Origin: a virus
Taxonomy: Duplodnaviria > Caudoviricetes
IMG/VR virus record: IMGVR_UViG_3300005076_000002
Span: 96,001-160,000 of that record
Strand: one strand, 5' to 3'
Length of the DNA stretch: 64,000 bases
Shown here: positions 34,876 to 54,414 of the stretch, piece after piece
Position numbering within the stretch: position 1 is the first letter of the stretch
Layout: every line of letters starts with the position of its first letter
Translations under genes and position numbers: made by a program
The notes under the pieces: generated by a model
What the model was told of the DNA's origin: nothing
The model's database searches: none
The model's input: only the letters and a program-made list of their open reading frames with translations

Positions 34876-34921
34876 CATTGGATATTAATCCTGCTATAAG
34901 CATCTCAATCTAGGAGCTATC

Positions 34922-35032
34922 ATGAAAGTTGTATCTAAGAAACGTGCACGTATTGAAATTATCTGCGGCTTGATGTCTATCCCGGCATCCTTCGGTCTGT
35001 TCTACTGGATGGCTGTACTGGCTACTAACTAA
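34922..35032 (+). CDS. 36-aa early membrane peptide (absent from the ORF track)
   Basis: TAGGAG RBS; MKVVSKKRARIEIICGLMSIPASFGLFYWMAVLATN; stop overlaps the RBS of the next gene. Confidence 0.7.
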   Translation: MKVVSKKRARIEIICGLMSIPASFGLFYWMAVLATN

Positions 35033-35042
35033 GGAGAGAATC

Positions 35043-35378
35043 ATGCTGCAAGTAACCGGTTTTGAAAGTCGCCCAATCGTAGGACGCGGCAACGTCGTAG
35101 TAATGCGCACTATGCTTGTAAGTGAGCGTTGCTTAACTATGATGGAAGGTAAGACCTGTGTAGGCGGGGTGGTGCTCGACAATGTGACTATCGACCGCCA
35201 GCCAGACCTGGGACTTATTGCACTGTTAAAGCGCATTGAGACATTCAAAGATGATCTCAATTCCTCTGACTCTGGCTTAGGCCACCTCTACATGATGGAG
35301 GTTAATAAGCTAGACCGTGCCGACGTAGGCGCGTTTGCTGTAGAGGCAGCCAAACTGTATTACAAATATAAGGGATAA
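35043..35378 (+). CDS. Early hypothetical protein
   Basis: AAGGAG RBS, 111 aa. Confidence 0.75.
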   Translation: MLQVTGFESRPIVGRGNVVVMRTMLVSERCLTMMEGKTCVGGVVLDNVTIDRQPDLGLIALLKRIETFKDDLNSSDSGLGHLYMMEVNKLDRADVGAFAVEAAKLYYKYKG

Positions 35379-35381
35379 AAG

Positions 35382-35948
35382 ATGTATTTAATTCAGGGAT
35401 ATTTCTGGAAAGTTATTGGTGCGTTTCGCACCAAGGTAAGCTTTGATGGGTTTGTAGAGAACAAGCCAGAAGAGGTCGATGGCCACGTCGTCATCGACGA
35501 CATCCCATTCCCAAAAGAGCAGATCACACTGCTCACCGAAGTACAGATCAGCGGTGTTAAGCCGCTGGATCTTTGCAAACTAATGGGTGTGGCTGTACGC
35601 ACGCCCGTGAAAGAGATAGTGAAGGGCACTCTCTTTGATGAAGAATTCAAGGAGATGCGTAAGCGCATTAATGCGGTTATCACTGCCGAGCGCGGTGCCA
35701 AGCGCATCATCGATCGCGACAGTATGATGCAGCGCGTGGATGAGATTATCGACTTTGGCCGTGCGGTCATTGCTAGCGATACCAAGTCCGGCAACTATTC
35801 GACCGCGCGCATTACAGCCGATGGCACGATGGCTAAACTGAACGCGGTCTTAGTTGAGGTATATGACGCCCCAACTAAATCACAAGCACTGCAAGGGTAC
35901 AAGTCGTACTCTGAAGCGATGATGGCCAAAGGCTATAGCTATAACTAA
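35382..35948 (+). CDS. Early hypothetical protein
   Basis: 188 aa, AAGGGA RBS. Confidence 0.75.
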   Translation: MYLIQGYFWKVIGAFRTKVSFDGFVENKPEEVDGHVVIDDIPFPKEQITLLTEVQISGVKPLDLCKLMGVAVRTPVKEIVKGTLFDEEFKEMRKRINAVITAERGAKRIIDRDSMMQRVDEIIDFGRAVIASDTKSGNYSTARITADGTMAKLNAVLVEVYDAPTKSQALQGYKSYSEAMMAKGYSYN

Positions 35949-35989
35949 TTCCGTGCTATAAGCACAATTGCATTCATTAGGAGCGTACC

Positions 35990-36376
35990 ATGAAAAACAA
36001 AACCTTTAAACAAATGATCGCCGATATCAGTTTGTCACCTGTAGTACGGTACAATCGCGCTGCTAGAGCGCGCGGAGCTAAACTGATCGATCGCCTCACT
36101 GCCGACTCAGTCCTGGTGTATAACGCTGGAAGTGGTGTCCCTTCTCTGGAGGGTTATCACAAACCGACCGCCTTCCCGGCCCCCGCATACCTCTACCATG
36201 GTAAGCAATTTAAGGTTAAAGTCTGGCGCCATGAAGGTGCCGAGAGTTGGCCTGTGGTGTTGGATGTTAAGGTCGACATACTCGACCCGACTTCCATGTG
36301 GAGCGAAGCATTGGTCAAGACCAATGAGAAGGAGTTCCGCATCATCCGGCACGGTACATTCTTCAGTCACCTCTGA
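35990..36376 (+). CDS. Early hypothetical protein
   Basis: TAGGAG RBS, 128 aa. Confidence 0.75.
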   Translation: MKNKTFKQMIADISLSPVVRYNRAARARGAKLIDRLTADSVLVYNAGSGVPSLEGYHKPTAFPAPAYLYHGKQFKVKVWRHEGAESWPVVLDVKVDILDPTSMWSEALVKTNEKEFRIIRHGTFFSHL

Positions 36377-36385
36377 GTGACAGCA

Positions 36386-36422
36386 TAAAAAGAAGAGGGC
36401 TTTCGCCCCCTTCTTTTTTTTT
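36386..36422. terminator. Bidirectional terminator
   Basis: AAAAAGAAGAGGGC-TTTC-GCCCCCTTC T9. Confidence 0.85.
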
Positions 36423-36425
36423 GTG

Positions 36426-37955
36426 TTAGAACGACAATCCGCCCAAGAAGTCATCAGTCTCATTAGCGATTTTATCGGCATTGACCGACGGGAGCATTGT
36501 ATCAATGTCCCCTTCCACGTCCCACGGCAGCGTACCAACGTCTGCAAACTTCAATACGCCGTAACGATGCTTGATAGGAGTGTCCACCAGAGTACGGTGC
36601 TTACCACGTTGAATTTCCAGATACGCAGTGTCACCTTTCTCGGTAATGCCGATATACAGTTCCAAGTCAGCTTCGTTATCGATGGTAGTACAGCCATCGA
36701 ACATGCCACGCCCAGGCAACAGTCTGACGTATTTGTCAGGATCCATAGCCTTCAACGCCTTTGCTGCCGGAGAAAGCTGGTGAGGAGAAATAACCACCAT
36801 CTTACGCACGGCGCCAGTGTTACGTGCACGACGATATGTCTCACGAACTTCACTACCTACCGTACCATTCCCCAGACCCACCTTATTGGCAACGCCCAGA
36901 TAGTCAATACGGGAAGCGACCACCTGATAGCCCTGACGCTCATAGAAGTTAACGACCATCTTAAAGGTTTCGATAGAGAAGTCAGTAGAGACGTGACGTT
37001 CGAATACATATTCCCAACCGTTGCGTTGCAGACGCTCGCGAATGAACTTCTCAGCTTCCTGAGGATCAACCTTATGCAGGTCAATCATCTCACCGGACTC
37101 ATACTCCTTGATCATCTTATAGGCCAAGGGGATATTCACCGACAGCTCGTTCTCAAGCGAGATGTCTAAGAACAGACCACGCTTACCTTCTTCAACGAAG
37201 TCCTTGGCATGGTTGAATAGACACATACTGAGGAAGAGAGAAAGCGAGAATGTTGTCTTAGCATTATGCGGCAGTGCAGGAATGATGATCAACTCACCCG
37301 GAGAGATACCGCCCTTGATACCGAGCATTCGGTTCATACCGATCCATCCGGTACGATAGGATGCGCCGGAAAGTTCTTTTTTTGTCTGTTCAAATACGCC
37401 AGCGAAACCACCTTCCCCTGCGGTGCTCACGGCACCCACAAAACTGGACGGACGATCGTTGGTAGGCGGTCGATCAAATACAGCCAGCTGCTCTCTGAGC
37501 TGCGCTACTGCATCCATTGTATTGGTAGAGCCATCATTGTTGCTCAAAGCAAACATGGCCATGTTAATTTGCCGACGGAGGTTAATCCTAGCGGTAAACA
37601 TTTCCAGCTGAGGTACTAGCGATGCAACAGTGGCACGTGCTTCATCAGCTGGGGTATCGACCTCCAATACGTCAGTGATGGATTTGAGAGTACCAGTGTC
37701 AAACGGACAGCTAATACGGAAACCGTTCAAGAATTGCTTCCTGTCCCACTTGGCAGAATTACCGATGATCTCATTGATGTAATGACGAAGATAAACCAGC
37801 GATGCACGGTCATCGCCCTCACCTACGAGATCGGGCAGTTTGATTGCATTAATGACACTTTTTATGAGAGGGTAGTGTGCCCCAACCTCATCTCCGCTGA
37901 GAGATTCGCAGTGGATGATATTGAGGCAGTTAACTAATGCGATTTTTTCTTCCAT
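36426..37955 (-). CDS. dnaB: DnaB-like replicative helicase (phiKZ gp118-like)
   Basis: Walker A ALPHNAKT, ISLEN, RIDYL, PHQLS, IDNEAD, QRGKHR. Confidence 0.88.
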   Translation of the reverse strand: MEEKIALVNCLNIIHCESLSGDEVGAHYPLIKSVINAIKLPDLVGEGDDRASLVYLRHYINEIIGNSAKWDRKQFLNGFRISCPFDTGTLKSITDVLEVDTPADEARATVASLVPQLEMFTARINLRRQINMAMFALSNNDGSTNTMDAVAQLREQLAVFDRPPTNDRPSSFVGAVSTAGEGGFAGVFEQTKKELSGASYRTGWIGMNRMLGIKGGISPGELIIIPALPHNAKTTFSLSLFLSMCLFNHAKDFVEEGKRGLFLDISLENELSVNIPLAYKMIKEYESGEMIDLHKVDPQEAEKFIRERLQRNGWEYVFERHVSTDFSIETFKMVVNFYERQGYQVVASRIDYLGVANKVGLGNGTVGSEVRETYRRARNTGAVRKMVVISPHQLSPAAKALKAMDPDKYVRLLPGRGMFDGCTTIDNEADLELYIGITEKGDTAYLEIQRGKHRTLVDTPIKHRYGVLKFADVGTLPWDVEGDIDTMLPSVNADKIANETDDFLGGLSF

Positions 37956-37977
37956 TGTAGAAACCCAAGGAAATGTT

Positions 37978-38565
37978 ATGGCAGATTTAATTTATGTGCC
38001 AGATTGGATGGATAGCTACTTGTCTGAGCAGGGGCTTTCCTATGATCATCTGGCGGCGATGAATTCTTCTAATCCTATAGTAAATCGACTGGATGTAATT
38101 AATTACCATGTTGCTCAAGTCGAATTTGCTAAATTGTTGGCATATGATACCGCCACTCGCGGTTTGCCCTCAAATGTTGACAATATCTATGAAGATATAC
38201 TCGGTGCGATGAAATTGCATCCGTCGAGGGATGTCGAAACTTCTGTCCAGGTTAACCTTGCGAAAGGTAAGCGTGATATCAACTTTGGCTGTCTTGTACA
38301 AGGCGCCACCGGCCCTAGCAATCTGTCGTTTAAATACGAGGCCAGCTCGACCGGCAAGATTGTTTATATTATAGGGATGTGCTGTGTCCAAGCATCTGGC
38401 GAGGACTGTACGGTTTCTGAGATTTCTCGATCGGTTATGAAAGGGGTTCTGGAGGCTGCTCATGGCAGTCTGCGAGTCTATTCAGGGCAGGTCGATAAGT
38501 CGACGGTACTTCGCGAGAATCCAGTTCTCGCCACATTCTATGTGAACAGTTTGTTAGCAAGCTAG
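37978..38565 (+). CDS. Conserved hypothetical protein (gp119-like)
   Basis: AAGGA RBS favours ATG 37978; lies just upstream of the capsid gene. Confidence 0.7.
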   Translation: MADLIYVPDWMDSYLSEQGLSYDHLAAMNSSNPIVNRLDVINYHVAQVEFAKLLAYDTATRGLPSNVDNIYEDILGAMKLHPSRDVETSVQVNLAKGKRDINFGCLVQGATGPSNLSFKYEASSTGKIVYIIGMCCVQASGEDCTVSEISRSVMKGVLEAAHGSLRVYSGQVDKSTVLRENPVLATFYVNSLLAS

Positions 38566-38616
38566 CGCTAACGTCAACATAGCCCTTACTTAATTAAGTA
38601 GAAAAGGAAACTCCTG

Positions 38617-40813
38617 ATGGCAAAGATCAATAAAACGACCATTCTCAGCAACAACGCCGCGTCTCTGAACGACGAAGGCCTGGTTAAGCACCTGGTCGGT
38701 ATGGAGAACTTCAACGAGTACGCCCCGCGCGCTACCGTTGGCGACTCCATCAGCCAGACCCTGGAATCCACCCTGCACAAAGAGCTCGGCCTGCGTGAAG
38801 GTGGTTTCACCAAGGCACAGCTGGAAGCTGCTTCCATCGTAGCCATGGCCTCTGCTGACCCGGTTGCCTACGCCCAAACCGCGATGAACACCCAGTTCGC
38901 CGGTCTGGAGTCTGGCCAGATCGATGCCCCGATGGTCATTGGCGGTTCCTTCGGCCACGCTGACGTGTTCAGTGGTCAGTCTGTTGGTCTGGAATACTTC
39001 AACGAGACCTCCCTGGATACCCACATGGCTACCTCGCTGGTGTTCAACCTGCAAGCTGCCCGCCAGGACGAGTTCTGCGAAGCGTTCTTCCGCACCATCA
39101 CCATCGACCCGTCCGAGTGTGGCATGTTGGTGGAAATCAACAAGACCATGGTTCACCGCGCCGTTCGCCACGCGATCAACGCCAAGGACAGCCAGCCGTA
39201 CGAGCGTCGTAACGTCCTGGATGCGGCCACCGACTTCTCCGTTCTGGAAGATCGTGCCGTAGACTTCGTGCCCTACTTCAACGTAGACGGCAGCCGTGAC
39301 GACGAGTTCTGCCCGGCCAGCCTGCACCAGCCGGTCGTACGTCGTGTTGAAAACGCACACATCCGTACCAACCCGCTGCGCTTCACCGCGAAAGACAAGC
39401 GCCTGATGGAGCTGTCTGCTCACCCCGGCCTGGTAACTTCCGGTATCCTGGACGAGTCCGACGAATTCGACGGCCGCGTTGCTCTGGAAAACCTGTACAT
39501 CCTGGCCAAGAAGAAAGGCGAAGACGACAGCAAGGGTAAACTGCTGAAGTTCCAAACTGGCATGCTGGCCCGTGCGTCCTTCAACAAGTCCCAGGAAGGC
39601 GATGGTCGCGAGATGTCCCTTCCGTAATGCGCACTTCACCATTACCAAGGACACCAAGGCCGTTGACAACTCCGACGTTCCTGCCCTGGAAGAACTGGGT
39701 GCCAACAAGTACACCCTGATCGTGACCGTTCGCGTGAACGCCAACGTCAACCTCCAGACCGGTATCGAATCCGCCATGGTTTCCAGCGTAACCATCGTTG
39801 GCCTGCGTGACGAAGCTGGTAAAGACATCTCCTGGACCGACGGCGCCGGTAAGCAAATCGTCGATGGTATCGATCTGGCGGGCTACTGCTACGATTACAA
39901 GATGACTCGCTCCAACAGCAACCGTCGTTCCAAGGGCCTGCTGGTTGACTCCGTCACCGAGCGCGAGCGTTACAAGATTCAGCTGGGCTCCCCGATCACT
40001 TCCCGTAAGCCGGTCGGCCGCACTGACAACAACGCTGCTCTGAACGACCTGATCACTACCGCCCGGATGCGCAACAACAACCTGGCCATCACCAAGCTGC
40101 TGAACTACACCGAGCAGCTGGACCAAGTTGTTCAAGGCATCACCAACGATTACGAAATTCCGTCTATCGAAGGTGCCGGTCGTCACTACATCCGCCCGTG
40201 GTTCGAGCGTGTGACCTTTGACGCCCAGAAACAGACCGCTGCACTCCAGTCCGACGACGTGCCGAACGCTCTGCGTGCTGCACTGCTGACCGTACTGCGT
40301 GATCAAGTTGTCCGTGCCTACCAAGAGTCCCGCTTCCAGCCGGCTCTGGAAATGCTCTCCGGTTACACCATCAGCAAGCCCTTGGTGATCATCGGTACCG
40401 ACATCACCACCGGTAACTGGCTGTGGGAGAAAGGCGATCTGCGTACCCTGGGCGACCAGTTCAAGTACAAGATCGTTACCACCACCGACTTCCGCTTCAA
40501 CGGTCGTCTCCAGTGGGTCTTCTCCGTAGGTGAAGAAGGTTACAGCTGCCTGAACTTCGGTAACTTCCTGTGGGTGCCGGAGCTGGTGACCGACACCAAC
40601 CTGACCCGTAACGACGCCGTAGCGAACGAAATCACCGTTCAACCGCGTTGCTACCACGTTGTTAACTGCCCGATCACCGGCGTGATCATGGTTGTAGGTC
40701 TGTCCGACTACGTCACCAGCAAGCCGTCCATCGGTGTTCAGCGCATGACCGCCCTGGGTGGCGTCATCGAAGACAACGTGATCGAAACTCCGGTTGGTCC
40801 TACCACTCCGTAA
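38617..40813 (+). CDS. Major capsid protein (phiKZ gp120-like), frameshifted at ~39619 in this sequence
   Basis: VFNLQAARQDEFCEAFFRTI, RSNSNRRSKG, VIIGTD, VQPRCYHVVNCP; propeptide GLE sites; the two halves share extreme codon bias and join at EMS/FRN. Confidence 0.88.
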
Positions 40814-40841
40814 GATCTACGTCGATGTAAAATAAAAAGAT

Positions 40842-40873
40842 GAGCTGGGGGAAACCCCAGCTCTTTTCTTTTT
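40842..40873 (+). terminator. Capsid gene terminator
   Basis: GAGCTGGGG-GAAA-CCCCAGCTC TTTTCTTTTT. Confidence 0.9.
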
Positions 40874-40941
40874 TGTGTTTTGTCTTATTATTTACAGGGA
40901 TATACATGGTATGTAAACTGCCACCCTCACTTGTAAAAATA

Positions 40942-40965
40942 TTGAAACATATATTATTAAAGTGA
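40942..40965 (+). promoter_or_regulatory. Early promoter
   Basis: TTGAAACATATATTATTAAAGTGA upstream of the operon containing nvRNAP beta-N. Confidence 0.72.
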
Positions 40966-40978
40966 TGGAGGTTGTATA

Positions 40979-41929
40979 ATGATAGAAACTGTCATACCGA
41001 CTATTGCTGTAGCCGACGTTTCCGCAAGACGTGGGCAATTTACACAGCATATCGAATATACCAATCAACTAGGCTACCCCATCGCAGTCATTCTAAAGAA
41101 TGGTATGAACGCAGTAATTCACCCTGCGATGAGTATCCAGACCAATGGTACCTTTACCATAACGGTGACATATTCAGCGAACCACCATAGTACGCTCAAT
41201 CAATTGTCATCCTTCTATAAGGAGAATCCTGACCTATCTAAGAAGTTACGGGAGCTATCGGCTAAAAGTCAAAACTATAAAACCGCCATCATTACGTATA
41301 CGCTAACTGATGAGCAGGTAGATGTAGATGGAGCGGTATATCTAGAAGAACTGGATATAATGCTCAAGACATCGATGGATGACCAAACAGTACATCCAGG
41401 GTCTAGGTTTAACGTCGCTATGACTAAGCCGCCAGATACGGCTGTGTCTATCGAGTTAACCGGTTGTGGAATGGAAGGAGCCGTGTATTTTGTATTGTTC
41501 GGTAATACTGTACTCCGACTACAGAATAAAGGCTTCGGCATAGATAGACCGGTGCTAAATTTCACAATCGATGGCGAGCTATCTGGCGCGCCAATGTACC
41601 TAGATAAAACCGATGTCCACGTAACTGAATCCGATGCGCAAGAAGAACTAAAACTCCGTCAGTCGTCGTATAACGACATTAACGGGGAACTACTTAAAGG
41701 AGTTAAAGCACACGCAGAAGGTCACTATAAGCTCATTAGTGGCAGTTCGAAAGATTTCGTATCTGAGAGTAGCGAACTGGTTGGTTCGGTCAATGATATG
41801 TCTTCTGCAATTGGTAAGTTGGAGAATGAGATCGCCGATGCAAGAGTCCATCAGCGAAAAGTGGCGGGCGAAACAATCAAGCTAGTATCGCCTATTGTAA
41901 CAACAATCGGAAAAGTTGTGGCCCTATAA
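40979..41929 (+). CDS. Conserved hypothetical protein (gp122-like)
   Basis: 316 aa, GGAGG RBS, coupled to the nvRNAP gene. Confidence 0.75.
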   Translation: MIETVIPTIAVADVSARRGQFTQHIEYTNQLGYPIAVILKNGMNAVIHPAMSIQTNGTFTITVTYSANHHSTLNQLSSFYKENPDLSKKLRELSAKSQNYKTAIITYTLTDEQVDVDGAVYLEELDIMLKTSMDDQTVHPGSRFNVAMTKPPDTAVSIELTGCGMEGAVYFVLFGNTVLRLQNKGFGIDRPVLNFTIDGELSGAPMYLDKTDVHVTESDAQEELKLRQSSYNDINGELLKGVKAHAEGHYKLISGSSKDFVSESSELVGSVNDMSSAIGKLENEIADARVHQRKVAGETIKLVSPIVTTIGKVVAL

Positions 41930-43563
41930 TGATCAACGATGCATTAGCAGTAGTGCGTGAAAGAATGCCAAAGTTGAACCCACTTATCTGTGAGGGCATT
42001 GCCTATCACCAGATGAAGTCTGTAGAGTCAGCGGTTAATAACCTGCTAATTACTGCATTCAGACGGGACGGGGAATATAACGGGGAAGGTCTACCGGATT
42101 CATTCCAGTATCTGCGCTTTGAACGGACAACGCCAGATGAAGATTTTCTTGAACGGGTTAAACGAAATAAATCAGGCAGGGGGAAAGCACGACCAGGGAT
42201 CAACATGGCAGAGACAGACACGTATCTCATACGCTGTCATTTCGAAAACGATGGTGAAGGCTTCATTAAGCATATCGCTATCCCATTCGCTCGGCCAGGT
42301 GGACTTATCAACATGCTTGGGACTACATACGGTATTGCGGCCGTACTCAAGACACGCGGTTTGTCCTTAACAACGAAGGGCTATTTCGCCGAATTCCCTC
42401 GTTGCAAAGTAAACTTTGATTGGTTAGCAGACAGTTACTACATCAATGGTACCATCGAGCATGTTTACATGCCGTACAGTACCTCCCTCCATACCAAAGC
42501 AAAAAGGCAGAAGACATACGTGCCGCCGTTGGCATGTTGGCTATTTGCCAAGTACGGGTTATTTGAAACATTCGAAGAGTTCCTTGGTGTCAGCATTGAG
42601 GTCTATGAGACCACCGATCCCAAGCTACTCACCCTTGACACTAACAAGTATTGCGTCTGCCGTGCTACCAAGCCGTTGCGTGGTGCCGAGCCAGAAATAG
42701 CAATCGTAATCAAAAAGGCTGACCTTTCGCCGCAAGCGAAAATCCTCATCGGGACTGTCTTCTATATTGCCCGATCCTATCCCGACCGCGTAGTCAAAGC
42801 GTATGTCGGTGAGCCGAGACTGTGGATGATCATGTTGGGCTTTGCCATCTTTGGTAAAAGTCGCGTGTTCTCCGAAATTCGTATTGTTGATGAGATTCGC
42901 ACGCACTTCTCGAATATCGAACGTGCGCTTGATGTCAACTTCAAGAACGAACTGATTTCTGTCGGTGTTGAATGCAGTACGATTTATGAGTTCCTGTTCT
43001 ACGTCATCAACAAGATGACCGAGCGTACAGGCGGTGAAATGTCGAGTATGGCCAATCTGTGGGGTCGCTATTACACGACCACGGAATACGTCATCCGTGA
43101 TTTGCGTGAAGCAATTTTCAATGCGCACTATGCCATTGTTAAAGCTGCACGTAAAACGGGTGGTGCTCCGGTGTCTACTGCACAGATAGACCACATCCTC
43201 AACAGTCAGCTGAATCAGGACGTCATCAATAACATCAACTCCGGTCACGGAGAGATTACGCCGTTCATGGTAGCTACCGATAACATGTTTATCGGCCTGA
43301 CATCCCACTGTATCGATCAGACTGATGCACGTAAGCGTCCAGGTGGTAAGAAAGTATTCGATACTTCTGACCCCTCACGCCACATGCACGCTTCGTTCCT
43401 CGAAGCTGGTTCTGTAGCCCACCTGCCAAAATCCAATCCGATTGGTCCGTACCGGATCAATGGTCGAGTTAAAATTGACCACTTTGGACGCATTATGGAG
43501 AAGGAAGAGAATGTCAAAGACATGCGACTCCTTCAGCAGGATTTCCGGGCCAAAGGCCTTTAA
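41929..43563 (+). CDS. Non-virion RNA polymerase beta subunit, N-terminal part (phiKZ gp123-like)
   Basis: PKLNPLICEGIA, WLFAKYG, HASFLEAGS..LPKSNP; 544 aa. Confidence 0.82.
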   Translation: MINDALAVVRERMPKLNPLICEGIAYHQMKSVESAVNNLLITAFRRDGEYNGEGLPDSFQYLRFERTTPDEDFLERVKRNKSGRGKARPGINMAETDTYLIRCHFENDGEGFIKHIAIPFARPGGLINMLGTTYGIAAVLKTRGLSLTTKGYFAEFPRCKVNFDWLADSYYINGTIEHVYMPYSTSLHTKAKRQKTYVPPLACWLFAKYGLFETFEEFLGVSIEVYETTDPKLLTLDTNKYCVCRATKPLRGAEPEIAIVIKKADLSPQAKILIGTVFYIARSYPDRVVKAYVGEPRLWMIMLGFAIFGKSRVFSEIRIVDEIRTHFSNIERALDVNFKNELISVGVECSTIYEFLFYVINKMTERTGGEMSSMANLWGRYYTTTEYVIRDLREAIFNAHYAIVKAARKTGGAPVSTAQIDHILNSQLNQDVINNINSGHGEITPFMVATDNMFIGLTSHCIDQTDARKRPGGKKVFDTSDPSRHMHASFLEAGSVAHLPKSNPIGPYRINGRVKIDHFGRIMEKEENVKDMRLLQQDFRAKGL

Positions 43564-43568
43564 TCATT

Positions 43569-43593
43569 TTTCAAGCATATATTACAATAGTGC
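43569..43593 (+). promoter_or_regulatory. Early promoter
   Basis: TTTCAAGCATATATTACAATAGTGC. Confidence 0.8.
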
Positions 43594-43623
43594 ATAAGCA
43601 CAGTAATTCACCCAGGAGTAAAC

Positions 43624-45349: not shown

Positions 45350-45379
45350 GCTAGGGGCTTCGGCCCCTAGTTTTTTTTT
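45350..45379 (+). terminator. Intrinsic terminator
   Basis: CTAGGGGC-TTCG-GCCCCTAG T9. Confidence 0.9.
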
Positions 45380-45390
45380 GCCGTGACGCA

Positions 45391-45415
45391 TAAAAGAGGA
45401 GGCCGAAGCCTCCTC
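45391..45415 (-). terminator. Intrinsic terminator for portal
   Basis: Minus strand GAGGAGGC-TTCG-GCCTCCTC TTTTATG. Confidence 0.88.
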
Positions 45416-45419
45416 GGTA

Positions 45420-48257: not shown

Positions 48258-48286
48258 TGTCATTCCCTCTAGTTTCTGGTGCGCAT

Positions 48287-50455
48287 ATGAACGCTTACTA
48301 CAAAATTTATCTCGAAGAGAACATCGAACTTGCAAAGTCGATGATCATTAAATCTGAAGTGACGGCTCGCCTCATGAATAAGGAGGTCGAGGGCCTTGGC
48401 TATAGTATATCAACTGATCAAAGTCAGTGGAGATATTACAAGCACCTGAACGGTGACTATTTCCACCTTGACGAACCAATGAAAATCATCTCGCTGGATA
48501 CCGGGGTGAAGATCACCTTTAACAAGGAAACGTTAGCCGTTCACAAAAAGACACGTAACGTCTATCTCAATACCCGTAGCTACGTCTCTAAGTTGAAGCA
48601 GCGTTACCCTACCCAGTGTATCCTAATCGATGGCATACTGCGCCCTACGCCGCCTAAGGTGGCGATAGATGCATTGGATATGACGATACTTCACCACGAT
48701 CCCAAATATGTGGAAAAGCAGGAGTATTCGCTGATCGCTTCTATTGAGAAGTGGATGCGCGGTTTCATGTATCGTTACATGATGGAGAGTTATCTTCACA
48801 CGAATGATCTGTTCGCTGCCGACATCTTTGGTAAGATGTTCGTCCACCTGCCGAAGAAGATAATGAATATCCGACAAGCGATGGTTAAGACGTCTCAGAC
48901 GCATACCTTCCATATTCGGATGTATCTTGCATCCCATAACCGACTCGATGAGTTCATGCCGTACTTCACGTACGAGCAGCTGCGATACTTCTACATGAAT
49001 ATCGCCTACCTGGAACGGCATACCGGGATGCAAAGCAACTTCGATGCCCTCATCCATAACTTGATGTCGGTACGAAACCTACCCGTCTATGATTACAAAC
49101 TCCAGCAGCAAGCGCTGCGTGTAGAAGACGGTGAGCTCTATCCTGATGCGGTATTTATTCGTACGCCTCTTAACCTCAACACTAACGTGCTGAGCCGGGG
49201 CGTCGATGAGGCCCCCATCTCTGAGATCATCTATAAAGAAGTACCTGACGCTAAACATAACGTTGAGCATGTTGGCGAATACCTGGCCAAAACTGAAACG
49301 GCCATGGGCATTAGTCAAATCAGTAAGCTTCCTACGAAGATCATCGAAGCCTCTGCAATTGACCCAGAGGACGTGGCTATCGTTAAACAGTTAGATATGC
49401 TGGTTAACCATTGGGCTTATTTGGCCACGACGGGAGCGTATACCGCGACTGTTGAAGTGCTAAATCCGATTAGTGGTGACCTGATGAAGCTGACGATGAA
49501 AGAGCTGTTTACGCTCTACATTTATGCTTTCTATATCGGACGTTACGGCCACGAGATGAAAGGTATCCCTGAGTATCTCGCTATCGATATCACCAAAATG
49601 CGGTGGATCGATTATGCGGAGTATGCCCAAGTCGTACCCAAAGACAAATGGGGTAAGTGGGATCCTGACATCGACTACTTCCAACAGACGTATATCGACC
49701 AATACCCGTCGTATACCTCTGCCGACGAGTTTGTTGACTTCTGTGAGAAAGTTACGGAGCTTAAACGACTACGTCACATGTTCACCTATCAGCCACAGCG
49801 GTTTGAACAAAAGGCTGTTCGTGAATCACTTTACCGCTACAGTTACACCAACATTAAGTGTGACTTGAAAACGCGGCGATATAAGACGTACGATGAGTTC
49901 TTTACCTATCTCGGTTTTGATCGTACGCTGATGTATGCAGAGAGCTGGACTGACCTGGCCCTGACCTGTTTGGATTTGGCTACGCTGATCACATCGCGCA
50001 ACGCGATGAGTCTGCGCGAGATTCAAGCCGCGATGGTTAAGGTATTCAAGCGACTGAGCAGTTACACGGTTCAGATTGTTGAAGAGATCATAAGCTCCGA
50101 TACGATCGTTACGAACAATCTGATGGCGATTACCAATGAAACTCCCGGTAGTACCTTAGATAAGAACACGTCGGATATGCCACCCGTCGATGTGATTACG
50201 TGTACTGGCAGGTCGCTGGAGACTACGTCTAAGCAAACATGCCATGTCAAAGCATTTAGTGTGACCGAGATCGTAGACAACCACTATGACGTCAATGTAG
50301 TGATCGGGGCTACTGCAACCGGGACAGAGCGTACTGTTACGATACTGACCATGGACGCAACTACTGCTGTTAAGATAGACCGGATTAGCGATGATCCGAT
50401 CCCTCTGATGGCCGCCTCGGGACACGATATGTGGGAGTTGATGACTACCGGTTAA
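48287..50455 (+). CDS. Baseplate/structural protein (gp128-like)
   Basis: WRYYKHLNGDY, HTFHIRMYLASH, LSSYTVQ. Confidence 0.75.
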   Translation: MNAYYKIYLEENIELAKSMIIKSEVTARLMNKEVEGLGYSISTDQSQWRYYKHLNGDYFHLDEPMKIISLDTGVKITFNKETLAVHKKTRNVYLNTRSYVSKLKQRYPTQCILIDGILRPTPPKVAIDALDMTILHHDPKYVEKQEYSLIASIEKWMRGFMYRYMMESYLHTNDLFAADIFGKMFVHLPKKIMNIRQAMVKTSQTHTFHIRMYLASHNRLDEFMPYFTYEQLRYFYMNIAYLERHTGMQSNFDALIHNLMSVRNLPVYDYKLQQQALRVEDGELYPDAVFIRTPLNLNTNVLSRGVDEAPISEIIYKEVPDAKHNVEHVGEYLAKTETAMGISQISKLPTKIIEASAIDPEDVAIVKQLDMLVNHWAYLATTGAYTATVEVLNPISGDLMKLTMKELFTLYIYAFYIGRYGHEMKGIPEYLAIDITKMRWIDYAEYAQVVPKDKWGKWDPDIDYFQQTYIDQYPSYTSADEFVDFCEKVTELKRLRHMFTYQPQRFEQKAVRESLYRYSYTNIKCDLKTRRYKTYDEFFTYLGFDRTLMYAESWTDLALTCLDLATLITSRNAMSLREIQAAMVKVFKRLSSYTVQIVEEIISSDTIVTNNLMAITNETPGSTLDKNTSDMPPVDVITCTGRSLETTSKQTCHVKAFSVTEIVDNHYDVNVVIGATATGTERTVTILTMDATTAVKIDRISDDPIPLMAASGHDMWELMTTG

Positions 50456-50513
50456 TAAAAAGACGCAGGTCATTTTATGGGCACGGTGCTTCAACTAACT
50501 CCGAGGAAATATC

Positions 50514-51017
50514 ATGAGCTATATGGTAGATATGTCGCTACCGCCTGCCGAGCTGCTTTTGGGTTTGATCAACCAAGAAAACCCAAAAGCAAACTTCACC
50601 TTTCAAACGGTGCAGTTCGATCCAGGCGGTCCGTCGAACACGACGCTCTACGGCAAAGACACGATGATATATCTGTTGCCGTTAAAGGGCGCTGGGTTCT
50701 TCGGCAAGAAGGCCTTCTATTACAACCGGATTAACCTGGCCGATTTCTTAGGTTCGTCCGGCGTAAAGATCGAGCCCGACAAGTACACCGAAACGGCTGA
50801 ACTTCTTCCATTGGTTATGAGTCAACTCGGCATTAACTTGACGCGTGGGGATATTTACAACGACTACATCATTCCTTTAACCAAGGATACGCAGTCGAAG
50901 ATACGTATCTCGGTAAGATCGATTATGTACAAAGGGTATGTTCCAGTCCACCTGGGGCCGCAGTCTATCTTTGCAGGACTGAAGAACCGGCTGTTGGACG
51001 GGTTCCATAAACCCTAG
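50514..51017 (+). CDS. Tail-tip paralog family member (YxRxxL N-terminal module)
   Basis: LINQEN...YYNRINL...LLDGF. Confidence 0.72.
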   Translation: MSYMVDMSLPPAELLLGLINQENPKANFTFQTVQFDPGGPSNTTLYGKDTMIYLLPLKGAGFFGKKAFYYNRINLADFLGSSGVKIEPDKYTETAELLPLVMSQLGINLTRGDIYNDYIIPLTKDTQSKIRISVRSIMYKGYVPVHLGPQSIFAGLKNRLLDGFHKP

Positions 51018-51040
51018 CCGTTAAGCAACGAGGTATTACT

Positions 51041-51942
51041 GTGGGAAATTCCATTTACGAAGCCAAGCGTACCACGAATACGCTGACCTCAGGTCGTATC
51101 CAGACCGCCAAGTTCTTTGGCGTTCCGGTAACGTATCTACGGTGAACGAAGTCTTGAAAGTGCTTGAGGGTCGTTACCCTGATGCCGACCAAGACCCGGA
51201 TACCAAGTACCTGATCTTGGGTAACAAGGGTCATGAAATTGATCTGACCGATGACGGTCCCGGTGCACCGGTACCGCTCGAACACTTGCCGACAGACGTA
51301 ATGCCGTGGGGGATCATTCCTCTGGTACTGCGTCCTGTTGACAAAGATCTGCCGGATGATGTTCGTGAGCGCTATGCGCTTCGTATCCTGGAAGAACACA
51401 ACGGTCTGCGCTACTGGGCGTATTACGCCAAGCGTTTGTCTCATCGTGGCAAGAAAACCCAAGACTATTTGGTCAAGGTTCGTGACGGGGTTAAAACCGT
51501 TACTGAATTCCGCTACGACGATACCAACCAGTATCCGGTACCGCCGAAGCTTCCTGATTACAACTACGATACCGTCTCTCAAGCGGTGTTGTCCGATGGT
51601 GATTACGTTTACTCGGCAATGACCATCAGTGTAGTGCTGGATCAGTTCGACATCGATGAACTTACCAACATGGCTCGTATCAAATACAAGTCGCCCCTCA
51701 AGGCAGTTATCTCTGAATTCTGCCTGGCGTCTGGTGTTGACATTATGACCCAAGGTGAGTCCATGGTCGGCTCTCCGTTCCAGTACCTGGAAGTGATCGC
51801 GTGCCAGATCAACGTGTTCATGACCACCTTTAACAACGCAGCGTTCTCCAACGGTCAGATTGCCTACGATATCCAAGTAGGTCAAACCGAACCGCTGCCG
51901 CTGTTGACCGGTGCCGTCAACCCCAATGTGGTAAATGTTTGA
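51041..51942 (+). CDS. Virion structural protein (gp139-like), frameshifted at ~51136 in this sequence
   Basis: GAGG RBS and GTG 51041 open MGNSIY...IQTAKFFGVPVTY; the -1 frame continues STVNE...GNKGH, YWAYYAKRL, AVISEFCLASG, GQTEPL. Confidence 0.7.
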
Positions 51943-52594
51943 TTTAGCAGCAGCGCCGCCAAACTGTATCCGTGTTATGGGCATTGACCCCGGCACAGAT
52001 ACTCTCGGGATAGCCATCGTCGATTTCGATCTGGATACCAAGAAAGCGAAACTGATGTATGGCCATACGTTCCATGCATCAAAGTACGTTAACTACTATC
52101 CTGAGATGACGGCGGTTCGTGGTTCGAGGGACGTTCGATTGATGGTTCTTAGAAAGAAACTCATCGAAAGCTTCATGATGGCCGAACCCGATCTCATCGC
52201 TGCCGAATCACCATTTCTACAACGGGGCAAAGTCAGTGCCTTCGAAGCCCTTGTCGAATGTTACGCGATGATGCGTGATGCGGTATGGGCATATAGCTCG
52301 CAGATAACACTCCAACGCGTAGATCCGGTCACGGTAAAAAATTATGTTGGCGTAAGCCACAAAGGTACGGACAAGAGCGACGTACACAAAGCAGTGAATA
52401 GCATCTACCGCGAACACTGTGATGAATGCGTTGACCTTAGTACGTTTGATGAACACGCAAATGACGCCGTTGCGGTTTGTCATGTGATTGTACGTAATCG
52501 TCTCCTCGGCGAGGTCGTGGAATCCACTCGGAAAAAGAAGGCGAAGCGAAGGAGTAAAAATGAACGTAGAAGAGGTGCTAAAGCAGTCAGCTGA
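51935..52594 (+). CDS. ruvC: RuvC-like Holliday junction resolvase (gp140-like)
   Basis: VMGIDPGT, IAAESPF, DEHANDAVAV. Confidence 0.88.
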   Translation: MFDLAAAPPNCIRVMGIDPGTDTLGIAIVDFDLDTKKAKLMYGHTFHASKYVNYYPEMTAVRGSRDVRLMVLRKKLIESFMMAEPDLIAAESPFLQRGKVSAFEALVECYAMMRDAVWAYSSQITLQRVDPVTVKNYVGVSHKGTDKSDVHKAVNSIYREHCDECVDLSTFDEHANDAVAVCHVIVRNRLLGEVVESTRKKKAKRRSKNERRRGAKAVS

Positions 52595-53057
52595 AAAAGC
52601 TTTGCGTAGTACGCCCGCAGGGGGCGTCATCGCGGATCAGCTCGAGGTACTCACAGGTACCAATGTCGACAGTGCGCTTACCGGGAAAGGTGTCAATGAG
52701 ATGCTGGAGTCTATTCCGGCCGACCTCAAGAAACGATTCCTCGGCCAGACCATTGACGACAAATTCGTCGCGTATAAATCGTGGAATGAACTCCGCGAAG
52801 CCATTGCCAACGACCCTGACGCCAAGAGCAAACAAAAGGCCTTGACCGCCATCACTTTCGTGATGATGTCCTTGACCATGTTCTTTGGTGGGGTTTTGGG
52901 GATGGAGTACGTTAAGAACGGCATCGTGCCCACCGCTGATCAGCTGCTGACCGTTTTTGGACCCCTGGGCCTCTCTCTTCTGCTTCAGTTTAGTTTCGGA
53001 CGTGAGATGGTGGCTAACGCCGCAATCGATTATCTGGCTAAACGTGTGGGCAAATAA
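52560..53057 (+). CDS. Membrane protein with two C-terminal TM segments (holin-like topology)
   Basis: AAGGAG RBS favours ATG 52560; ALTAITFVMMSLTMFFGGVLG and LLTVFGPLGLSLLLQFSF. Confidence 0.7.
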   Translation: MNVEEVLKQSAEKALRSTPAGGVIADQLEVLTGTNVDSALTGKGVNEMLESIPADLKKRFLGQTIDDKFVAYKSWNELREAIANDPDAKSKQKALTAITFVMMSLTMFFGGVLGMEYVKNGIVPTADQLLTVFGPLGLSLLLQFSFGREMVANAAIDYLAKRVGK

Positions 53058-53065
53058 GCTACAGC

Positions 53066-53094
53066 GTGGTTGGGGAAACCCAACCACCTTTTTA
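53066..53094 (+). terminator. Intrinsic terminator
   Basis: GTGGTTGGG-GAAA-CCCAACCAC CTTTTT. Confidence 0.88.
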
Positions 53095-53142
53095 TTTGTT
53101 TTTATTTACATCGCAGTTATTTTGTGAGCTGAGGAGAATGCC

Positions 53143-53616
53143 ATGCCTAACCAAGAAACTAATACCACCCTTTTCGATATCACGAAAATCTATCGTAAGT
53201 ATTCGCCGCACGAATTGTTACAAAAGGCCTCTGAACCGATCACGCCGGTCATAATCTACGAACTGTTCAAACTGCTCCATGCCAAGACCTCCCCAGAAAG
53301 TCGGACGTGGATGGCCGTATCATCTATACCAAAGTTTATTCTTCCACATCTCGCGCCGTACTTTGGCATCTATAGCGTAAGAGATCCCCTGGTAGAGCTC
53401 AAACGTCGATTGCCTATGGTGTACCGTGAGCTAGTACCACACATTGAGAACTTGTCGGTTATAGTGCGGGAGTATTATGAACAAGTCCCGTCTGACTTTC
53501 ACGACGGTACCTATCGTTTTGGTCTAACTGAAGTGCATACCAAGACGTGGGGCGTAAAACATTTCCTAATATACCAGCGCAACGTAGAGACGCTTAAATG
53601 GCCACAAAAGTTATAG
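53143..53616 (+). CDS. Hypothetical protein
   Basis: GAGGAG RBS, 157 aa. Confidence 0.72.
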   Translation: MPNQETNTTLFDITKIYRKYSPHELLQKASEPITPVIIYELFKLLHAKTSPESRTWMAVSSIPKFILPHLAPYFGIYSVRDPLVELKRRLPMVYRELVPHIENLSVIVREYYEQVPSDFHDGTYRFGLTEVHTKTWGVKHFLIYQRNVETLKWPQKL

Positions 53617-54077
53617 AAGTAAATGGTGAGTATGTCGCTAAGTGGGGTTTGGAGCAATTCCTTAAAGAGCGCCCAGGTACTCGCGCATTTGTAGCTATCG
53701 ATGAGGAAGATGCGGTAGGTTCGCTTCTCTTCACGGATGGCTATATTACTCACATTCATGTGAGCGAGGATTATCGACGGGGCGGATTTGGTACTAAGCT
53801 GCTGGAGTACGCCGCCAACGTCATCGCCAAGGATAAGACACTTAAAGCCGTAGTGGGTGACCACAACCCTGACGCACAAGCGTTCTTCTTAAAGAACGGC
53901 TTCCGCTATGCTGGCCGCTCTGTATTGAATCGCAGTTCAGCGGCTCTTATGGAGAAACGTATCTTTATTGATCGTGGTACTGATCATGCAGATCGTGAGG
54001 TAATTCTCTCCACTGCGCTCGATGCAATGCTTCAGGCAATGTACACCGTAGAAGTTGCGCCCATCCACGTTAAATAG
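53598..54077 (+). CDS. GNAT-family acetyltransferase
   Basis: ITHIHVSEDYRRGGFGTKLL (motif A), NPDAQAFFLKNGF (motif B). Confidence 0.88.
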   Translation: MATKVIEVNGEYVAKWGLEQFLKERPGTRAFVAIDEEDAVGSLLFTDGYITHIHVSEDYRRGGFGTKLLEYAANVIAKDKTLKAVVGDHNPDAQAFFLKNGFRYAGRSVLNRSSAALMEKRIFIDRGTDHADREVILSTALDAMLQAMYTVEVAPIHVK

Positions 54078-54106
54078 CGAGTAGGGGGAAACCCCTACTC
54101 GTCTTA
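54078..54106 (+). terminator. Terminator-like hairpin
   Basis: CGAGTAGGGG-GAAA-CCCCTACTCG TCTTATG. Confidence 0.75.
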
Positions 54107-54128
54107 TGCTGCCGGTCTAGTAAAAAAC

Positions 54129-54154
54129 TTTTCAGATATATATTATCCTTGTGC
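54129..54154 (+). promoter_or_regulatory. Early promoter
   Basis: TTTTCAGATATATATTATCCTTGTGC. Confidence 0.72.
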
Positions 54155-54190
54155 AGATCAATCTTAATCTGTGTTATCAGGAGTATAATA

Positions 54191-54367
54191 ATGAAAAACT
54201 TTGTGGCTTATCAAGGTAGTGGTGACAATCTCCACGACTGGTTTTACAGGAACGAGAATAGTGAGGTCATCGGTGCCTTTTCTTCTTGTGAAGAGTGTAC
54301 TGCGGCGGCGTATGCCGCTAAGCGCGAATACACCCGCCGTTCCAACGACGGCCCTAACCCCAACTAA
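54191..54367 (+). CDS. 58-aa early protein
   Basis: AGGAG RBS, MKNFVAYQ... Confidence 0.7.
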   Translation: MKNFVAYQGSGDNLHDWFYRNENSEVIGAFSSCEECTAAAYAAKREYTRRSNDGPNPN

Positions 54368-54414
54368 TCTACAGGGGACTATAAGTCCCCTCATTTCCCC
54401 ATTTAGGAGTTAAC

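What the first reader, a model, noticed from the sequence alone, without database searches (positions are those of the whole stretch)
34892..54391. Covarying (T)ATAA-loop hairpin upstream of the RBS of early genes
Seen: TGC-TATAA-GCA (34892), GTGC-TATAA-GCAC (35953), GTGC-ATAA-GCAC (43590) and AGGGGAC-TATAA-GTCCCCT (54373). The stems differ, but the loop and closing C-G pair are kept. Each lies 9-12 nt before an AGGAG RBS, and I noticed them only in early-promoter-driven units. Inference: an RNA tag for early mRNAs (processing site, protein-binding site for export from the early vesicle or for translational control), or an N4-like DNA hairpin signal for vRNAP.
Basis: partly seen in the sequence, partly recalled or inferred. 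Interest (0 to 1): 0.72.

Follow-up and report, generated by a model that had tools for sequence, protein, structure and literature searches.

The report
UANAA-loop RNA hairpins before early-gene ribosome sites
A nucleus-forming jumbo phage carries about eleven small RNA hairpins with the same five-base loop (U-A-N-A-A) and freely varying stems, each just ahead of a gene's ribosome-binding site and mostly in early gene cassettes; this looks like an undescribed, lineage-specific control tag whose reader is unknown.

Summary
All four hairpins are at the stated coordinates. Three of them (34892, 35953, 54373) belong to a genome-wide family of 11 sense-strand hairpins with loop U-A-N-A-A (10 TATAA, 1 TACAA). 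The closing pair is C-G or, rarely, G-C. Stems are unrelated and 3-11 bp long. The hairpins end 10-18 nt before the Shine-Dalgarno sequence and 19-29 nt before the start codon.

GCTATAAG is the joint most enriched 8-mer upstream of genes. The loop is by far the commonest among hairpins just upstream of a Shine-Dalgarno sequence. All 11 copies point the same way, and G·U pairs occur only on the mRNA strand.

At five of six orthologous sites in relatives the stems change, often by compensatory substitutions, while U1, A2, A4 and A5 stay fixed. At one site the loop is replaced.

The fourth hairpin (43590, ATAA) is a different thing: a 5'-terminal leader hairpin that overlaps the promoter's conserved GTG.

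The family is enriched near early promoters but is not a universal early tag: it occurs behind 6 of 27 early promoters, and one copy lies outside any early unit. It is absent from Vibrio phage pVa-21, from relatives at about 50-58% identity, and from Rfam.

Best reading: a cis-acting RNA operator or processing tag read by an unknown factor. Plain terminators and N4-like DNA hairpins fit worse.

This scan has noted analogous loop-conserved leader hairpins in other phages, but with different loops.

The parts
34892..34902 (+). UAUAA-loop hairpin TGC-TATAA-GCA in the 5' leader of an early cassette; weak (-1.2 kcal/mol)
   Evidence: The orthologue in relative L001 is CACCgGC-TATAA-GCaGGTG: same loop, longer stem.
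35953..35965 (+). UAUAA-loop hairpin GTGC-TATAA-GCAC between cistrons, 4 nt after the stop codon TAA (35946-35948) and 13 nt before the SD
   Evidence: The orthologue in L001 is GCGG-TATAA-CCGC: the stem is replaced, the closing pair is flipped, the loop is kept.
54373..54391 (+). UAUAA-loop hairpin AGGGGAC-TATAA-GTCCCCT between cistrons (-12.3 kcal/mol)
   Evidence: The orthologues in L008 and L009 keep a hairpin at this place but with another stem and the loop CAATGA.
43590..43601 (+). GTGC-ATAA-GCAC. Not a family member: a 5'-terminal leader hairpin whose GTG is part of the early promoter
   Evidence: Orthologues L001, L002 and L004 have GTGC-AATA-GCAC. L005 has no hairpin here.
34830..34874 (+). 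Early promoter: A-tract, CA-TATATTAC core at 34860-34867, GTG at 34872-34874
   Evidence: Position-weight-matrix score 53.2, one of 27 genome-wide sites, all on the + strand.
34880..34891 (+). 5'-proximal leader hairpin GGAT-ATTA-ATCC, directly abutting the UAUAA hairpin
   Evidence: The relative has AGAT-AATA-ATCT, a compensatory change. Contigs of other strains diverge from 34890 onward.
43548..43592 (+). Early promoter, core TATATTAC at 43578-43585
54109..54153 (+). Early promoter, core TATATTAT at 54139-54146, 234 nt upstream of the 54373 hairpin
34912..34924 (+). SD AGGAG (34912-34916) and ATG (34922) of a 36-codon ORF
35979..35992 (+). SD AGGAG (35979-35983) and ATG (35990) of a 128-aa gene with no known relatives
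54405..54417 (+). SD AGGAG (54405-54409) and ATG (54415)
34805..34824 (+). Canonical terminator GAGAGGGC-GAAA-GCCCTCTC followed by a T-run, immediately upstream of the early promoter. Included as a contrast class: its stem type is conserved and its loop is a GNRA tetraloop.

Best explanation
The element is a cis-acting RNA hairpin. It is formed on the mRNA of a subset of early, strain-variable accessory gene cassettes of this chimallivirus lineage. Its identity lies in the apical motif: closing pair C-G (rarely G-C), then the loop U-A-N-A-A. This can also be drawn as an invariant U-A pair capping an A-N-A triloop. The stem only has to pair.

The hairpin sits 3-8 nt after the upstream stop codon, or after the 5'-terminal leader hairpin. 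It ends 10-18 nt before the SD, at the 5' edge of where a 30S subunit would bind.

I infer that the loop is read by a trans-acting factor, phage- or host-encoded, protein or RNA. That factor would set the fate of the downstream cistron, either by translational control from an operator next to the ribosome-binding site or by endonucleolytic processing or stabilisation at that point. This would give a co-regulated set of about 11 genes.

Shown: the family exists, it folds on the sense strand, its stems covary, its loop is under constraint, its position is fixed, it is biased toward early units, and it is restricted to this lineage. Inferred: that a factor reads the loop, and what the outcome is.
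For: 1. Loop constant, stems unrelated. In 16 aligned copies T9, A10, A12 and A13 are invariant. All 7 stem pairs show changes on both sides. 88% of cells are paired against 52% in shuffles (0 of 500 shuffles reach this) and against 28-49% when the partner is slid. These copies were selected because they are hairpins, so this test is not independent.

2. The independent test is position-defined orthologues.
- 130892 and 131953 against L001: stems replaced, TATAA kept.
- Locus C: five different stems (GTAGGGCGGC, GGGGGTGGC, GGGGTGGC, GGGGTAGC, AGGGCGGC 5' arms) with G-C, G·U and A-U exchanges, and loop TATAA or TACAA.
- Locus B: U·G, C-G and U-A exchanges, loop TACAA or TATAA.
- Locus A: loop TATAA, TACAA or TAAAA.
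Only the central loop base varies.

3. Strand and RNA level. Orientation is 11 to 0. At least 14 G·U pairs occur in the sense orientation and no A·C pairs.

4. Fixed position. Hairpins end 10-18 nt before the SD and 19-29 nt before the AUG, both in 5' leaders (53547, 130892, 202871) and between cistrons.

5. The opposite pattern to this phage's canonical terminators. Those keep the stem (CTAGGGGC...GCCCCTAG), vary the loop (GNRA, UUCG and others) and always carry a T-run.

6. The downstream genes are unrelated and have no known relatives, so the motif did not spread by gene duplication.

7. Outside coding sequence, CTATAAG occurs only inside hairpins.

8. Precedent for loop-specific operators beside a ribosome-binding site: the T4 and RB69 gp43 operator hairpin, and the RegA and RegB regulons of T4 early mRNAs (PMC3014915).
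Against: - No partner was identified. No Pfam RegB, RegA, PemK/MazF, Csy4, S1, RNase III, RelE/ParE or CSD domain was detected in six-frame searches of the genome. The RegB and RegA searches also rang in no control genome, so those two blanks carry little weight.
- One orthologous site lost the loop but kept a hairpin. A hairpin alone may therefore suffice at some sites.
- Two members are very weak hairpins (-1.2 and -3.9 kcal/mol).
- Three members look like ordinary terminators with T-runs.
- The early bias is moderate (p = 0.003 against all + strand starts, p = 0.024 against starts with an upstream gap of 35 nt or more). It is not significant under a crude definition of transcription units (7 of 10, p = 0.07).
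- There are no transcript-end or expression data.
Confidence: 0.5

Rival explanations
1. The hairpins are purely structural intercistronic or leader hairpins and no specific reader exists. They would act as weak terminators or attenuators for the phage RNA polymerases, as 3' stabilisers of the upstream cistron, as 5' stabilisers after processing, or as insulators that keep the ribosome-binding site unpaired. The shared loop would reflect a folding or stability preference, or common descent within a pool of exchangeable cassettes.
For: - Three members (54030, 187283, 201619) pass a terminator filter: GC-rich stem plus T-rich tail. Locus A keeps its T-run in all variants.
- phiKZ and 201phi2-1 have conserved terminator motifs with an A/T-rich loop (CCYCCCC-HWWD-GGGRRGG-YTTAT; PMC10914365, PMC11512511).
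- One orthologue swapped the loop for CAATGA yet kept the hairpin.
- Other hairpins upstream of an SD with different loops exist in the genome.
- The cassette holding two members is exchanged as a unit between strains, as with the PeSL cassettes of T4-type phages (PMC2839356).
Against: - Eight of 11 members lack a U-tract.
- Three sit in 5' leaders 32-39 nt after a promoter, where a terminator or a 3' stabiliser makes little sense.
- UANAA is not a known extra-stable loop. This phage uses GNRA and UUCG loops where stability matters.
- Four loop positions are invariant while stems turn over completely, which is hard to explain without sequence-specific selection.
- Stems share no sequence, so recent common descent is unlikely.
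Confidence: 0.3
2. The element acts at the DNA level. It could be an extruded hairpin serving as a promoter or pause signal for a phage RNA polymerase, as in N4, or a site for recombination or cassette exchange.
For: - The position 35-40 nt upstream of start codons would suit a promoter.
- The loop CTATAAG loosely resembles the putative late motif cTATGTAg.
- Contigs of other strains diverge from this genome at 34890, right beside the 34892 hairpin.
Against: - The G·U pairs would be C·A mismatches on the template strand.
- The phage's polymerases are multisubunit beta/beta'-like, not N4 or T7-like.
- Early promoters are a linear 50-nt motif.
- The alternative cassettes that replace 34890-36385 in other strains lack the hairpin, so it is cargo and not the crossover site.
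- Orientation is strictly co-directional with genes.
Confidence: 0.08
3. The hairpin is an antitermination site of the nut or boxB type. It would load a factor onto the transcribing polymerase so that it reads through the canonical terminators inside early operons.
For: - It is a pentaloop hairpin in early leaders and just after the first cistron, as with lambda nutL and nutR (my own knowledge).
- The operon at genome 53508 has two UAUAA hairpins upstream of an internal TTCG terminator that is followed by another gene.
- The 201phi2-1 authors raised antitermination as a possibility in that phage (PMC11512511).
Against: - There are several copies per operon, each tied to a ribosome-binding site rather than to a terminator.
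- No boxA-like linear motif is obvious by eye in the flanks.
- The loop is not of the GNRNA type.
- No homologue of N was searched for or is known.
Confidence: 0.07

Closest known systems
T4 and RB69 gp43 translational operator hairpin; more generally loop-specific operator hairpins such as the MS2 and PP7 coat-protein sites
   Same: A small hairpin lies just 5' of the ribosome-binding site. The loop bases carry the specificity and the stem only has to pair (PMC3014915). The MS2 and PP7 comparison is from my own knowledge.
   Different: Those are single-copy autoregulatory sites with a known protein. Here there are about 11 copies in front of unrelated genes, the loop is UANAA, the hairpin ends 10-18 nt before the SD rather than overlapping it, and no partner is known.
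T4 RegA and RegB regulons of early mRNAs
   Same: One trans-acting factor acts post-transcriptionally on many early mRNAs through a short signal in or near translation initiation regions (PMC3014915).
   Different: RegB cuts an unstructured GGAG, and RegA binds unstructured AU-rich start regions. Here the signal is a structured loop upstream of the SD. No RegA or RegB homologue was detected, although those two searches also found nothing in the control genomes.
PeSL (promoter-early stem-loop) cassettes of T4-type phages RB49 and phi1
   Same: Early promoter plus stem-loop modules flank small genes without known relatives, in variable regions that are exchanged between close strains (PMC2839356). 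This phage has terminator-promoter-leader-hairpin cassettes, and the cassette 34890-36385 is swapped in other strains.
   Different: In PeSL the stem (GGGG...CCCC) is the conserved part and acts as a terminator. The UANAA hairpin has a conserved loop and a free stem, also lies between cistrons within operons, and usually lacks a U-tract.
Start-associated sequences (SAS and ESAS) of cluster K mycobacteriophages
   Same: A lineage-specific, orientation-specific repeat lies immediately upstream of the starts of a subset of non-structural genes of different families. Its function and reader are unknown (PMC3203893).
   Different: SAS is a 13-nt linear sequence containing the SD, 3-7 bp from the start codon. 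ESAS arms are conserved in sequence. Here the SD is ordinary and the conserved part is a hairpin loop 19-29 nt upstream of the start.
Conserved terminator motif of phiKZ and 201phi2-1
   Same: It comes from the same broad virus family. It is a GC-rich hairpin with an A/T-rich loop followed by YTTAT, repeated many times (PMC10914365; PMC11512511). Three of the 11 members here look like this.
   Different: There the stem sequence is conserved, the loop is a loose HWWD, and the 5' arm is C-rich. Here the stems are free, the loop is fixed, and most copies have no U-tract.

Membership tests
Intrinsic (Rho-independent) terminator | U-tract immediately 3' of a GC-rich hairpin | tested here: not met
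   Only 3 of 11 members (54030, 187283, 201619) have 7 or more T in the 10 nt after the stem. The three window copies have the tails TCTCAATCT, AATTGCATT and CATTTCCCC.
Intrinsic (Rho-independent) terminator | Location at the end of a transcription unit | tested here: not met
   Three members lie in 5' leaders 32-39 nt downstream of an early promoter core. The others lie between co-directional cistrons.
N4-type hairpin promoter for a virion RNA polymerase | Hairpin forms in DNA on the template strand | tested here: not met
   At least 14 G·U pairs occur in the sense (non-template) orientation. They would be C·A mismatches on the template strand.
N4-type hairpin promoter for a virion RNA polymerase | Single-subunit T7-like virion polymerase, and hairpins that serve as the early promoters | tested here: not met
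   The polymerases are split beta/beta'-like subunits. The 27 early promoters share a linear motif, A-tract then CA-TATATTAY-N4-GTG.
Lambda-type nut site (boxA plus boxB) | GNRA-like pentaloop and an adjacent boxA; one site per early operon | tested here: not met
   The loop is UANAA. There are up to two or three copies per operon. No shared linear motif is obvious by eye in the flanks. The definition of the family is from my own knowledge.
PeSL cassette | Early promoter joined to a stem-loop with a conserved stem that terminates upstream transcription, flanking exchangeable genes without known relatives | tested here: inconclusive
   The cassette architecture exists here. The UANAA hairpin is not its terminator component: its stems are not conserved and it also occurs inside operons.
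SAS and ESAS of cluster K mycobacteriophages | Conserved linear 13-mer containing the SD, 3-7 bp from the start codon | tested here: not met
   The conserved element is a loop 19-29 nt upstream of the start. The SD regions are ordinary and variable.
Protein-recognised RNA operator hairpin | Loop sequence conserved while the stem covaries | tested here: met
Protein-recognised RNA operator hairpin | A cognate binding protein | not testable with these tools
   No candidate came from eight Pfam family searches of the genome. A pull-down experiment is needed.
Any Rfam 15 family | Covariance-model match | tested here: not met
   No match at gathering thresholds in the window. Only chance-level hits (E of 0.25 or more, elsewhere) in the four other hairpin-bearing loci.

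The most novel reading that the evidence does not exclude
The UANAA hairpin is the operator of a dedicated, still unrecognised RNA-binding regulator or structure-specific endoribonuclease that evolved within this chimallivirus lineage. Through it the phage would switch a regulon of immediate-early accessory cassettes on or off together. This would resemble the RegA and RegB systems of T4, but structure-specific, and possibly tied to how early mRNAs made in the injection vesicle are selected for translation.
Probability: 0.25. Interest if true: 0.75.

Novelty: new variant of a known kind. Interest (0 to 1): 0.55.

Why it matters
Little is known about post-transcriptional control in nucleus-forming jumbo phages. 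Published transcriptome maps of phiKZ and 201phi2-1 describe promoters, terminators and a small RNA, but no RNA operator shared between genes.

A short hairpin with four invariant loop bases, placed in front of about 11 unrelated early genes that have no known relatives, is a compact and directly testable handle. It could serve as bait to find the factor that reads it. It defines a candidate co-regulated set of early genes, probably for host takeover or anti-defence. It could also serve as a portable regulatory part.

The finding also adds to a pattern this scan has seen in other phages: loop-conserved leader hairpins in front of early or accessory genes, each lineage with its own loop.

Tried and rejected
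- Close relatives in public phage records: megablast found none. blastn and tblastn found only Vibrio phages pVa-21 and pVp-JHP1101 at about 41% amino-acid identity.
- IMG/VR protein-pattern scans with two proteins found nothing.
- An IMG/VR scan for the promoter 15-mer TTCAGACATATATTA returned 110 loci. None scores as a promoter with the matrix, so all are chance hits.
- The genome search offers no relatives for a virus record, and the Logan and ENA records behind the loci are not held.
- JGI metagenome scans: a hairpin-adjacent protein found nothing. The nvRNAP alignment found five loci at 49-58% identity, none with the motif.
- The 384-aa gene downstream of hairpin 187283 has no homologues outside its own 90% cluster. 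That hairpin could therefore be compared only with near-identical strains.
- Sequencing runs: no RNA holder is listed, and all runs are kept as contigs, so no transcript ends could be read.
- Read laying: the table of differing letters was cut (1,109 rows not shown), so per-base variation at the hairpins could not be read from it.
- Candidate readers: Pfam RegB, RegA, PemK, Csy4, S1, RNase III, ParE/RelE and CSD gave no hit in the genome. The RegB and RegA models also rang in no control genome, so those two blanks mean little.
- PHROGs gave no family for any of the 10 proteins flanking hairpins outside the window.
- A literature search for a UAUAA hairpin loop found nothing relevant. The id I guessed for Ceyssens 2014 is not held.
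- Ideas considered and set aside for lack of any test: anticodon-loop mimicry (C-U-ANA-A-G); a PemK/Kid-type UAH cleavage site; pairing of UAAG with the 16S rRNA 3' end, which fails for the copies with a G-C closing pair; and a kissing interaction with the early small RNA at genome 167.7 kb, which carries the same-sense UAUAA unpaired in its predicted fold.


Full report
**Context.** The window is bases 96,001-160,000 of a single 219,689-bp virus record with 49.5% G+C, estimated 92% complete by CheckV. It encodes split beta/beta'-like RNA polymerase subunits, a PhiKZ-type major capsid protein and other chimallivirus core genes. Its nearest named relatives are Vibrio phages pVa-21 and pVp-JHP1101, at only about 41% amino-acid identity. 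Metagenome assemblies hold near-identical strains, a lineage at about 91% identity, and lineages at about 50-58% identity; these percentages are amino-acid identity of the non-virion polymerase subunit.

**The observation.** They end 9, 13, 12 and 13 nt before an AGGAG.

The pattern is far from chance:
- CTATAAG occurs 13 times in the window against 5.5 expected, and 0 of 100 shuffles reach 13.
- GCTATAAG is the joint most enriched 8-mer in the 90 nt upstream of genes genome-wide, level with the early-promoter word CATATATT.
- 9 of 301 TATAA occurrences have flanking stems of 6 bp or more, against a background rate of 0.38%.
- Among hairpins ending 25 nt or less before an SD plus start codon, the U-AUA-A loop is seen 11 times (10 of them TATAA) and no other loop more than 3 times.

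**The family.** Genome coordinates equal window coordinates plus 96,000. The members with a TATAA loop and a downstream SD and start codon are at 53547, 54030, 130892, 131953, 150373, 168611, 171457, 187283, 201619 and 203435. A TACAA copy lies at 202871.
- All 11 are on the + strand and co-directional with the gene that follows. None has the reverse loop TTATA.
- Stems are 3-11 bp and share no sequence. Folding energies range from -1.2 to -16.9 kcal/mol.
- The closing pair is C-G in 14 of 16 aligned copies and G-C in 2. The next pair is G-C or A-U.
- Hairpins start 3-8 nt after the upstream stop codon, or follow a 5'-terminal leader hairpin.
- They end 10-18 nt before the SD and 19-29 nt before the start codon.
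- The downstream proteins are unrelated to each other and match no PHROG family.

**RNA or DNA.** G·U pairs are frequent in the sense orientation. I counted at least 14 across own and orthologous copies, for example at 53547, 168611, 203435 and at loci B and C. I saw no A·C pairs. Together with the 11-to-0 orientation, this places the structure on the mRNA.

**Comparative test.** The alignment of 16 copies shows strong covariation: 88% of cells paired against 52% in shuffles, 0 of 500 shuffles reaching this, and 28-49% when the partner is slid. Those copies were chosen because they are hairpins, so this test is not independent.

The independent evidence is orthologues defined by gene position:
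- 130892: TGC-TATAA-GCA becomes CACCgGC-TATAA-GCaGGTG.
- 131953: GTGC-TATAA-GCAC becomes GCGG-TATAA-CCGC.
- 150373: AGGGGAC-TATAA-GTCCCCT becomes TGGCGGGC-CAATGA-GTCCGCCA. The hairpin is kept and the loop is lost.
- Locus A (201619): the same stem and T-run with loop TATAA, TACAA or TAAAA.
- Locus B (202871): U·G, C-G and U-A exchanges in the stem, with loop TACAA here and TATAA in four other strains.
- Locus C (203435): five different stems with G-C, G·U and A-U exchanges, with loop TATAA four times and TACAA once.

At five of the six sites U1, A2, A4 and A5 never change while the stems and the flanking intergenic sequence turn over. Only the central loop base is free. By contrast, a canonical terminator compared between the same strains changed both its stem and its loop (TTCG to TTCA) and kept its T-run. 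Genome-wide, the canonical terminators of this phage share stems (CTAGGGGC...GCCCCTAG) and vary their loops. This is the mirror image of the UANAA family.

**The fourth hairpin.** GTGC-ATAA-GCAC at 43590 begins with the GTG that is a conserved downstream element of all 27 early promoters. Its orthologue has loop AATA, and a more distant relative has no hairpin there. It belongs with the 5'-terminal leader hairpins that many early transcripts of this phage carry, such as GAGATTAG-ATA-CTAATCTC and GGAT-ATTA-ATCC. The latter covaries to AGAT-AATA-ATCT in the relative.

**Link to early expression.** A position-weight matrix finds 27 early promoters, all on the + strand. Their form is an A-tract followed by CA-TATATTAY-N4-GTG.
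- Eight of the ten TATAA hairpins lie within 1.6 kb downstream of one.
- The median distance is 764 nt, against 3,895 nt for other + strand gene starts (Mann-Whitney p = 0.003). Against starts with an upstream gap of 35 nt or more, p = 0.024.
- With a crude rule that runs a transcription unit from a promoter to the first terminator, 7 of 10 fall inside early units that cover 42% of the genome (p = 0.07).
- Only 6 of the 27 promoters have a member downstream. Four of those six are among the six best-scoring promoters.
- Hairpin 201619 has no early promoter within 6.4 kb upstream.

The family is therefore enriched in a subset of early cassettes and is not a universal early mark.

**Cassette exchange.** Contigs of other strains laid on the window diverge from it at 34890 and rejoin at 36384-36387. 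The cassette carrying two of the hairpins is therefore exchanged as a unit behind a shared promoter and leader hairpin, and the replacing cassettes lack the motif.

**Distribution.**
- pVa-21 (232 kb, scanned whole) has only 9 CTATAAG, fewer than the reversed-pattern control, and no dominant loop before its ribosome-binding sites.
- Loci from relatives at 49-58% identity show no such hairpins.
- Rfam 15 has no match.
- The papers searched describe promoters, terminators and one small RNA in phiKZ-like phages, but nothing like this.

**Mechanism.** The element is found both in leaders and between cistrons, and its distance to the SD is constant. This ties it to the downstream translation start rather than to the upstream gene. 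A loop with four invariant bases on stems of any sequence and strength is the signature of sequence-specific recognition of a displayed loop. Known examples are the T4 and RB69 gp43 operator, and the T4 RegA and RegB systems show how one factor can act on many early mRNAs.

I therefore favour an operator or processing tag read by an unknown factor (about 0.5). A purely structural role as attenuator, stabiliser or insulator is the main rival (about 0.3). It is supported by three terminator-like members, by the one loop loss, and by the conserved terminator motifs known in phiKZ. It does not explain the invariant loop or the leader copies. DNA-level roles (about 0.08) conflict with the G·U evidence and with the type of polymerase. 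A nut-like antitermination role (about 0.07) is not excluded.

No candidate reader emerged from eight Pfam family searches of the genome. No RNA data were available.

**Verdict.** This is a real family of RNA hairpins specific to this lineage. I found no match in Rfam 15 and no description in the papers searched. The scan has recorded analogous loop-conserved leader hairpins in other phages with other loops, so the kind recurs while this motif is new.

Noticed in passing
window 38617-40813: The PhiKZ-type major capsid gene is split into two overlapping ORFs (38617-39627 and 39572-40813), whereas relatives have one gene of 748 aa. Contigs from all four public runs laid on the window carry an extra TGGAG after 39619. 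This assembly therefore has a 5-nt deletion and frameshift there, either an assembly error or a defective variant.
   Followed up: partly
window 34890-36387: In other strains the whole early cassette (four small genes) is replaced by different sequence. The breakpoints lie just after the shared promoter and leader hairpin (34890) and at the downstream terminator (36384-36387). This resembles PeSL-like modular exchange of early genes.
   Followed up: partly
genome 167681-167866 (L012:1182-1368): A stand-alone RNA of about 175 nt is driven by an early promoter and ends at its own terminator. It folds into a long rod (MFE -60.5 kcal/mol, z = -4.4) and carries an unpaired UAUAA just 5' of the rod. 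It is near-identical over this stretch in strain L016.
   Followed up: partly
27 sites genome-wide; window 34860, 40950, 43578, 54139 and 1338: The early promoter consensus is an A-tract, about 10 nt, then CA-TATATTAY-N4-GTG. All 27 sites are on the + strand. Most are fused to an upstream canonical terminator and followed by a 5'-terminal hairpin with an A/U-rich loop.
   Followed up: yes
genome-wide, e.g. window 1357, 63403; genome 173750, 53288: TATGTA(g) is enriched upstream of genes (17 upstream regions against 3.5 expected). It probably marks the late or middle promoter, related to the TATG late motif of phiKZ.
   Followed up: partly
genome 165201 and 191845 (outside the window): Two further hairpins upstream of an SD have the loops TACAT (TATAT in strain L016) and TATAT (GTAG in strain L017). 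They may be fringe relatives of the UANAA family or may be unrelated.
   Followed up: no
window 41212 and 41665: Two 4-bp TATAA hairpins lie inside the coding sequence of the 316-aa gene upstream of the nvRNAP subunit. They are kept at the same places in relative L001, one with an apparently compensatory change (GTCG/CGAC becomes CTCG/CGAG). This is probably a coding constraint plus chance.
   Followed up: no
L017:3785-4567: In a near strain, a GIY-YIG/I-TevI-like homing endonuclease gene sits between two thymidylate synthase fragments.
   Followed up: no
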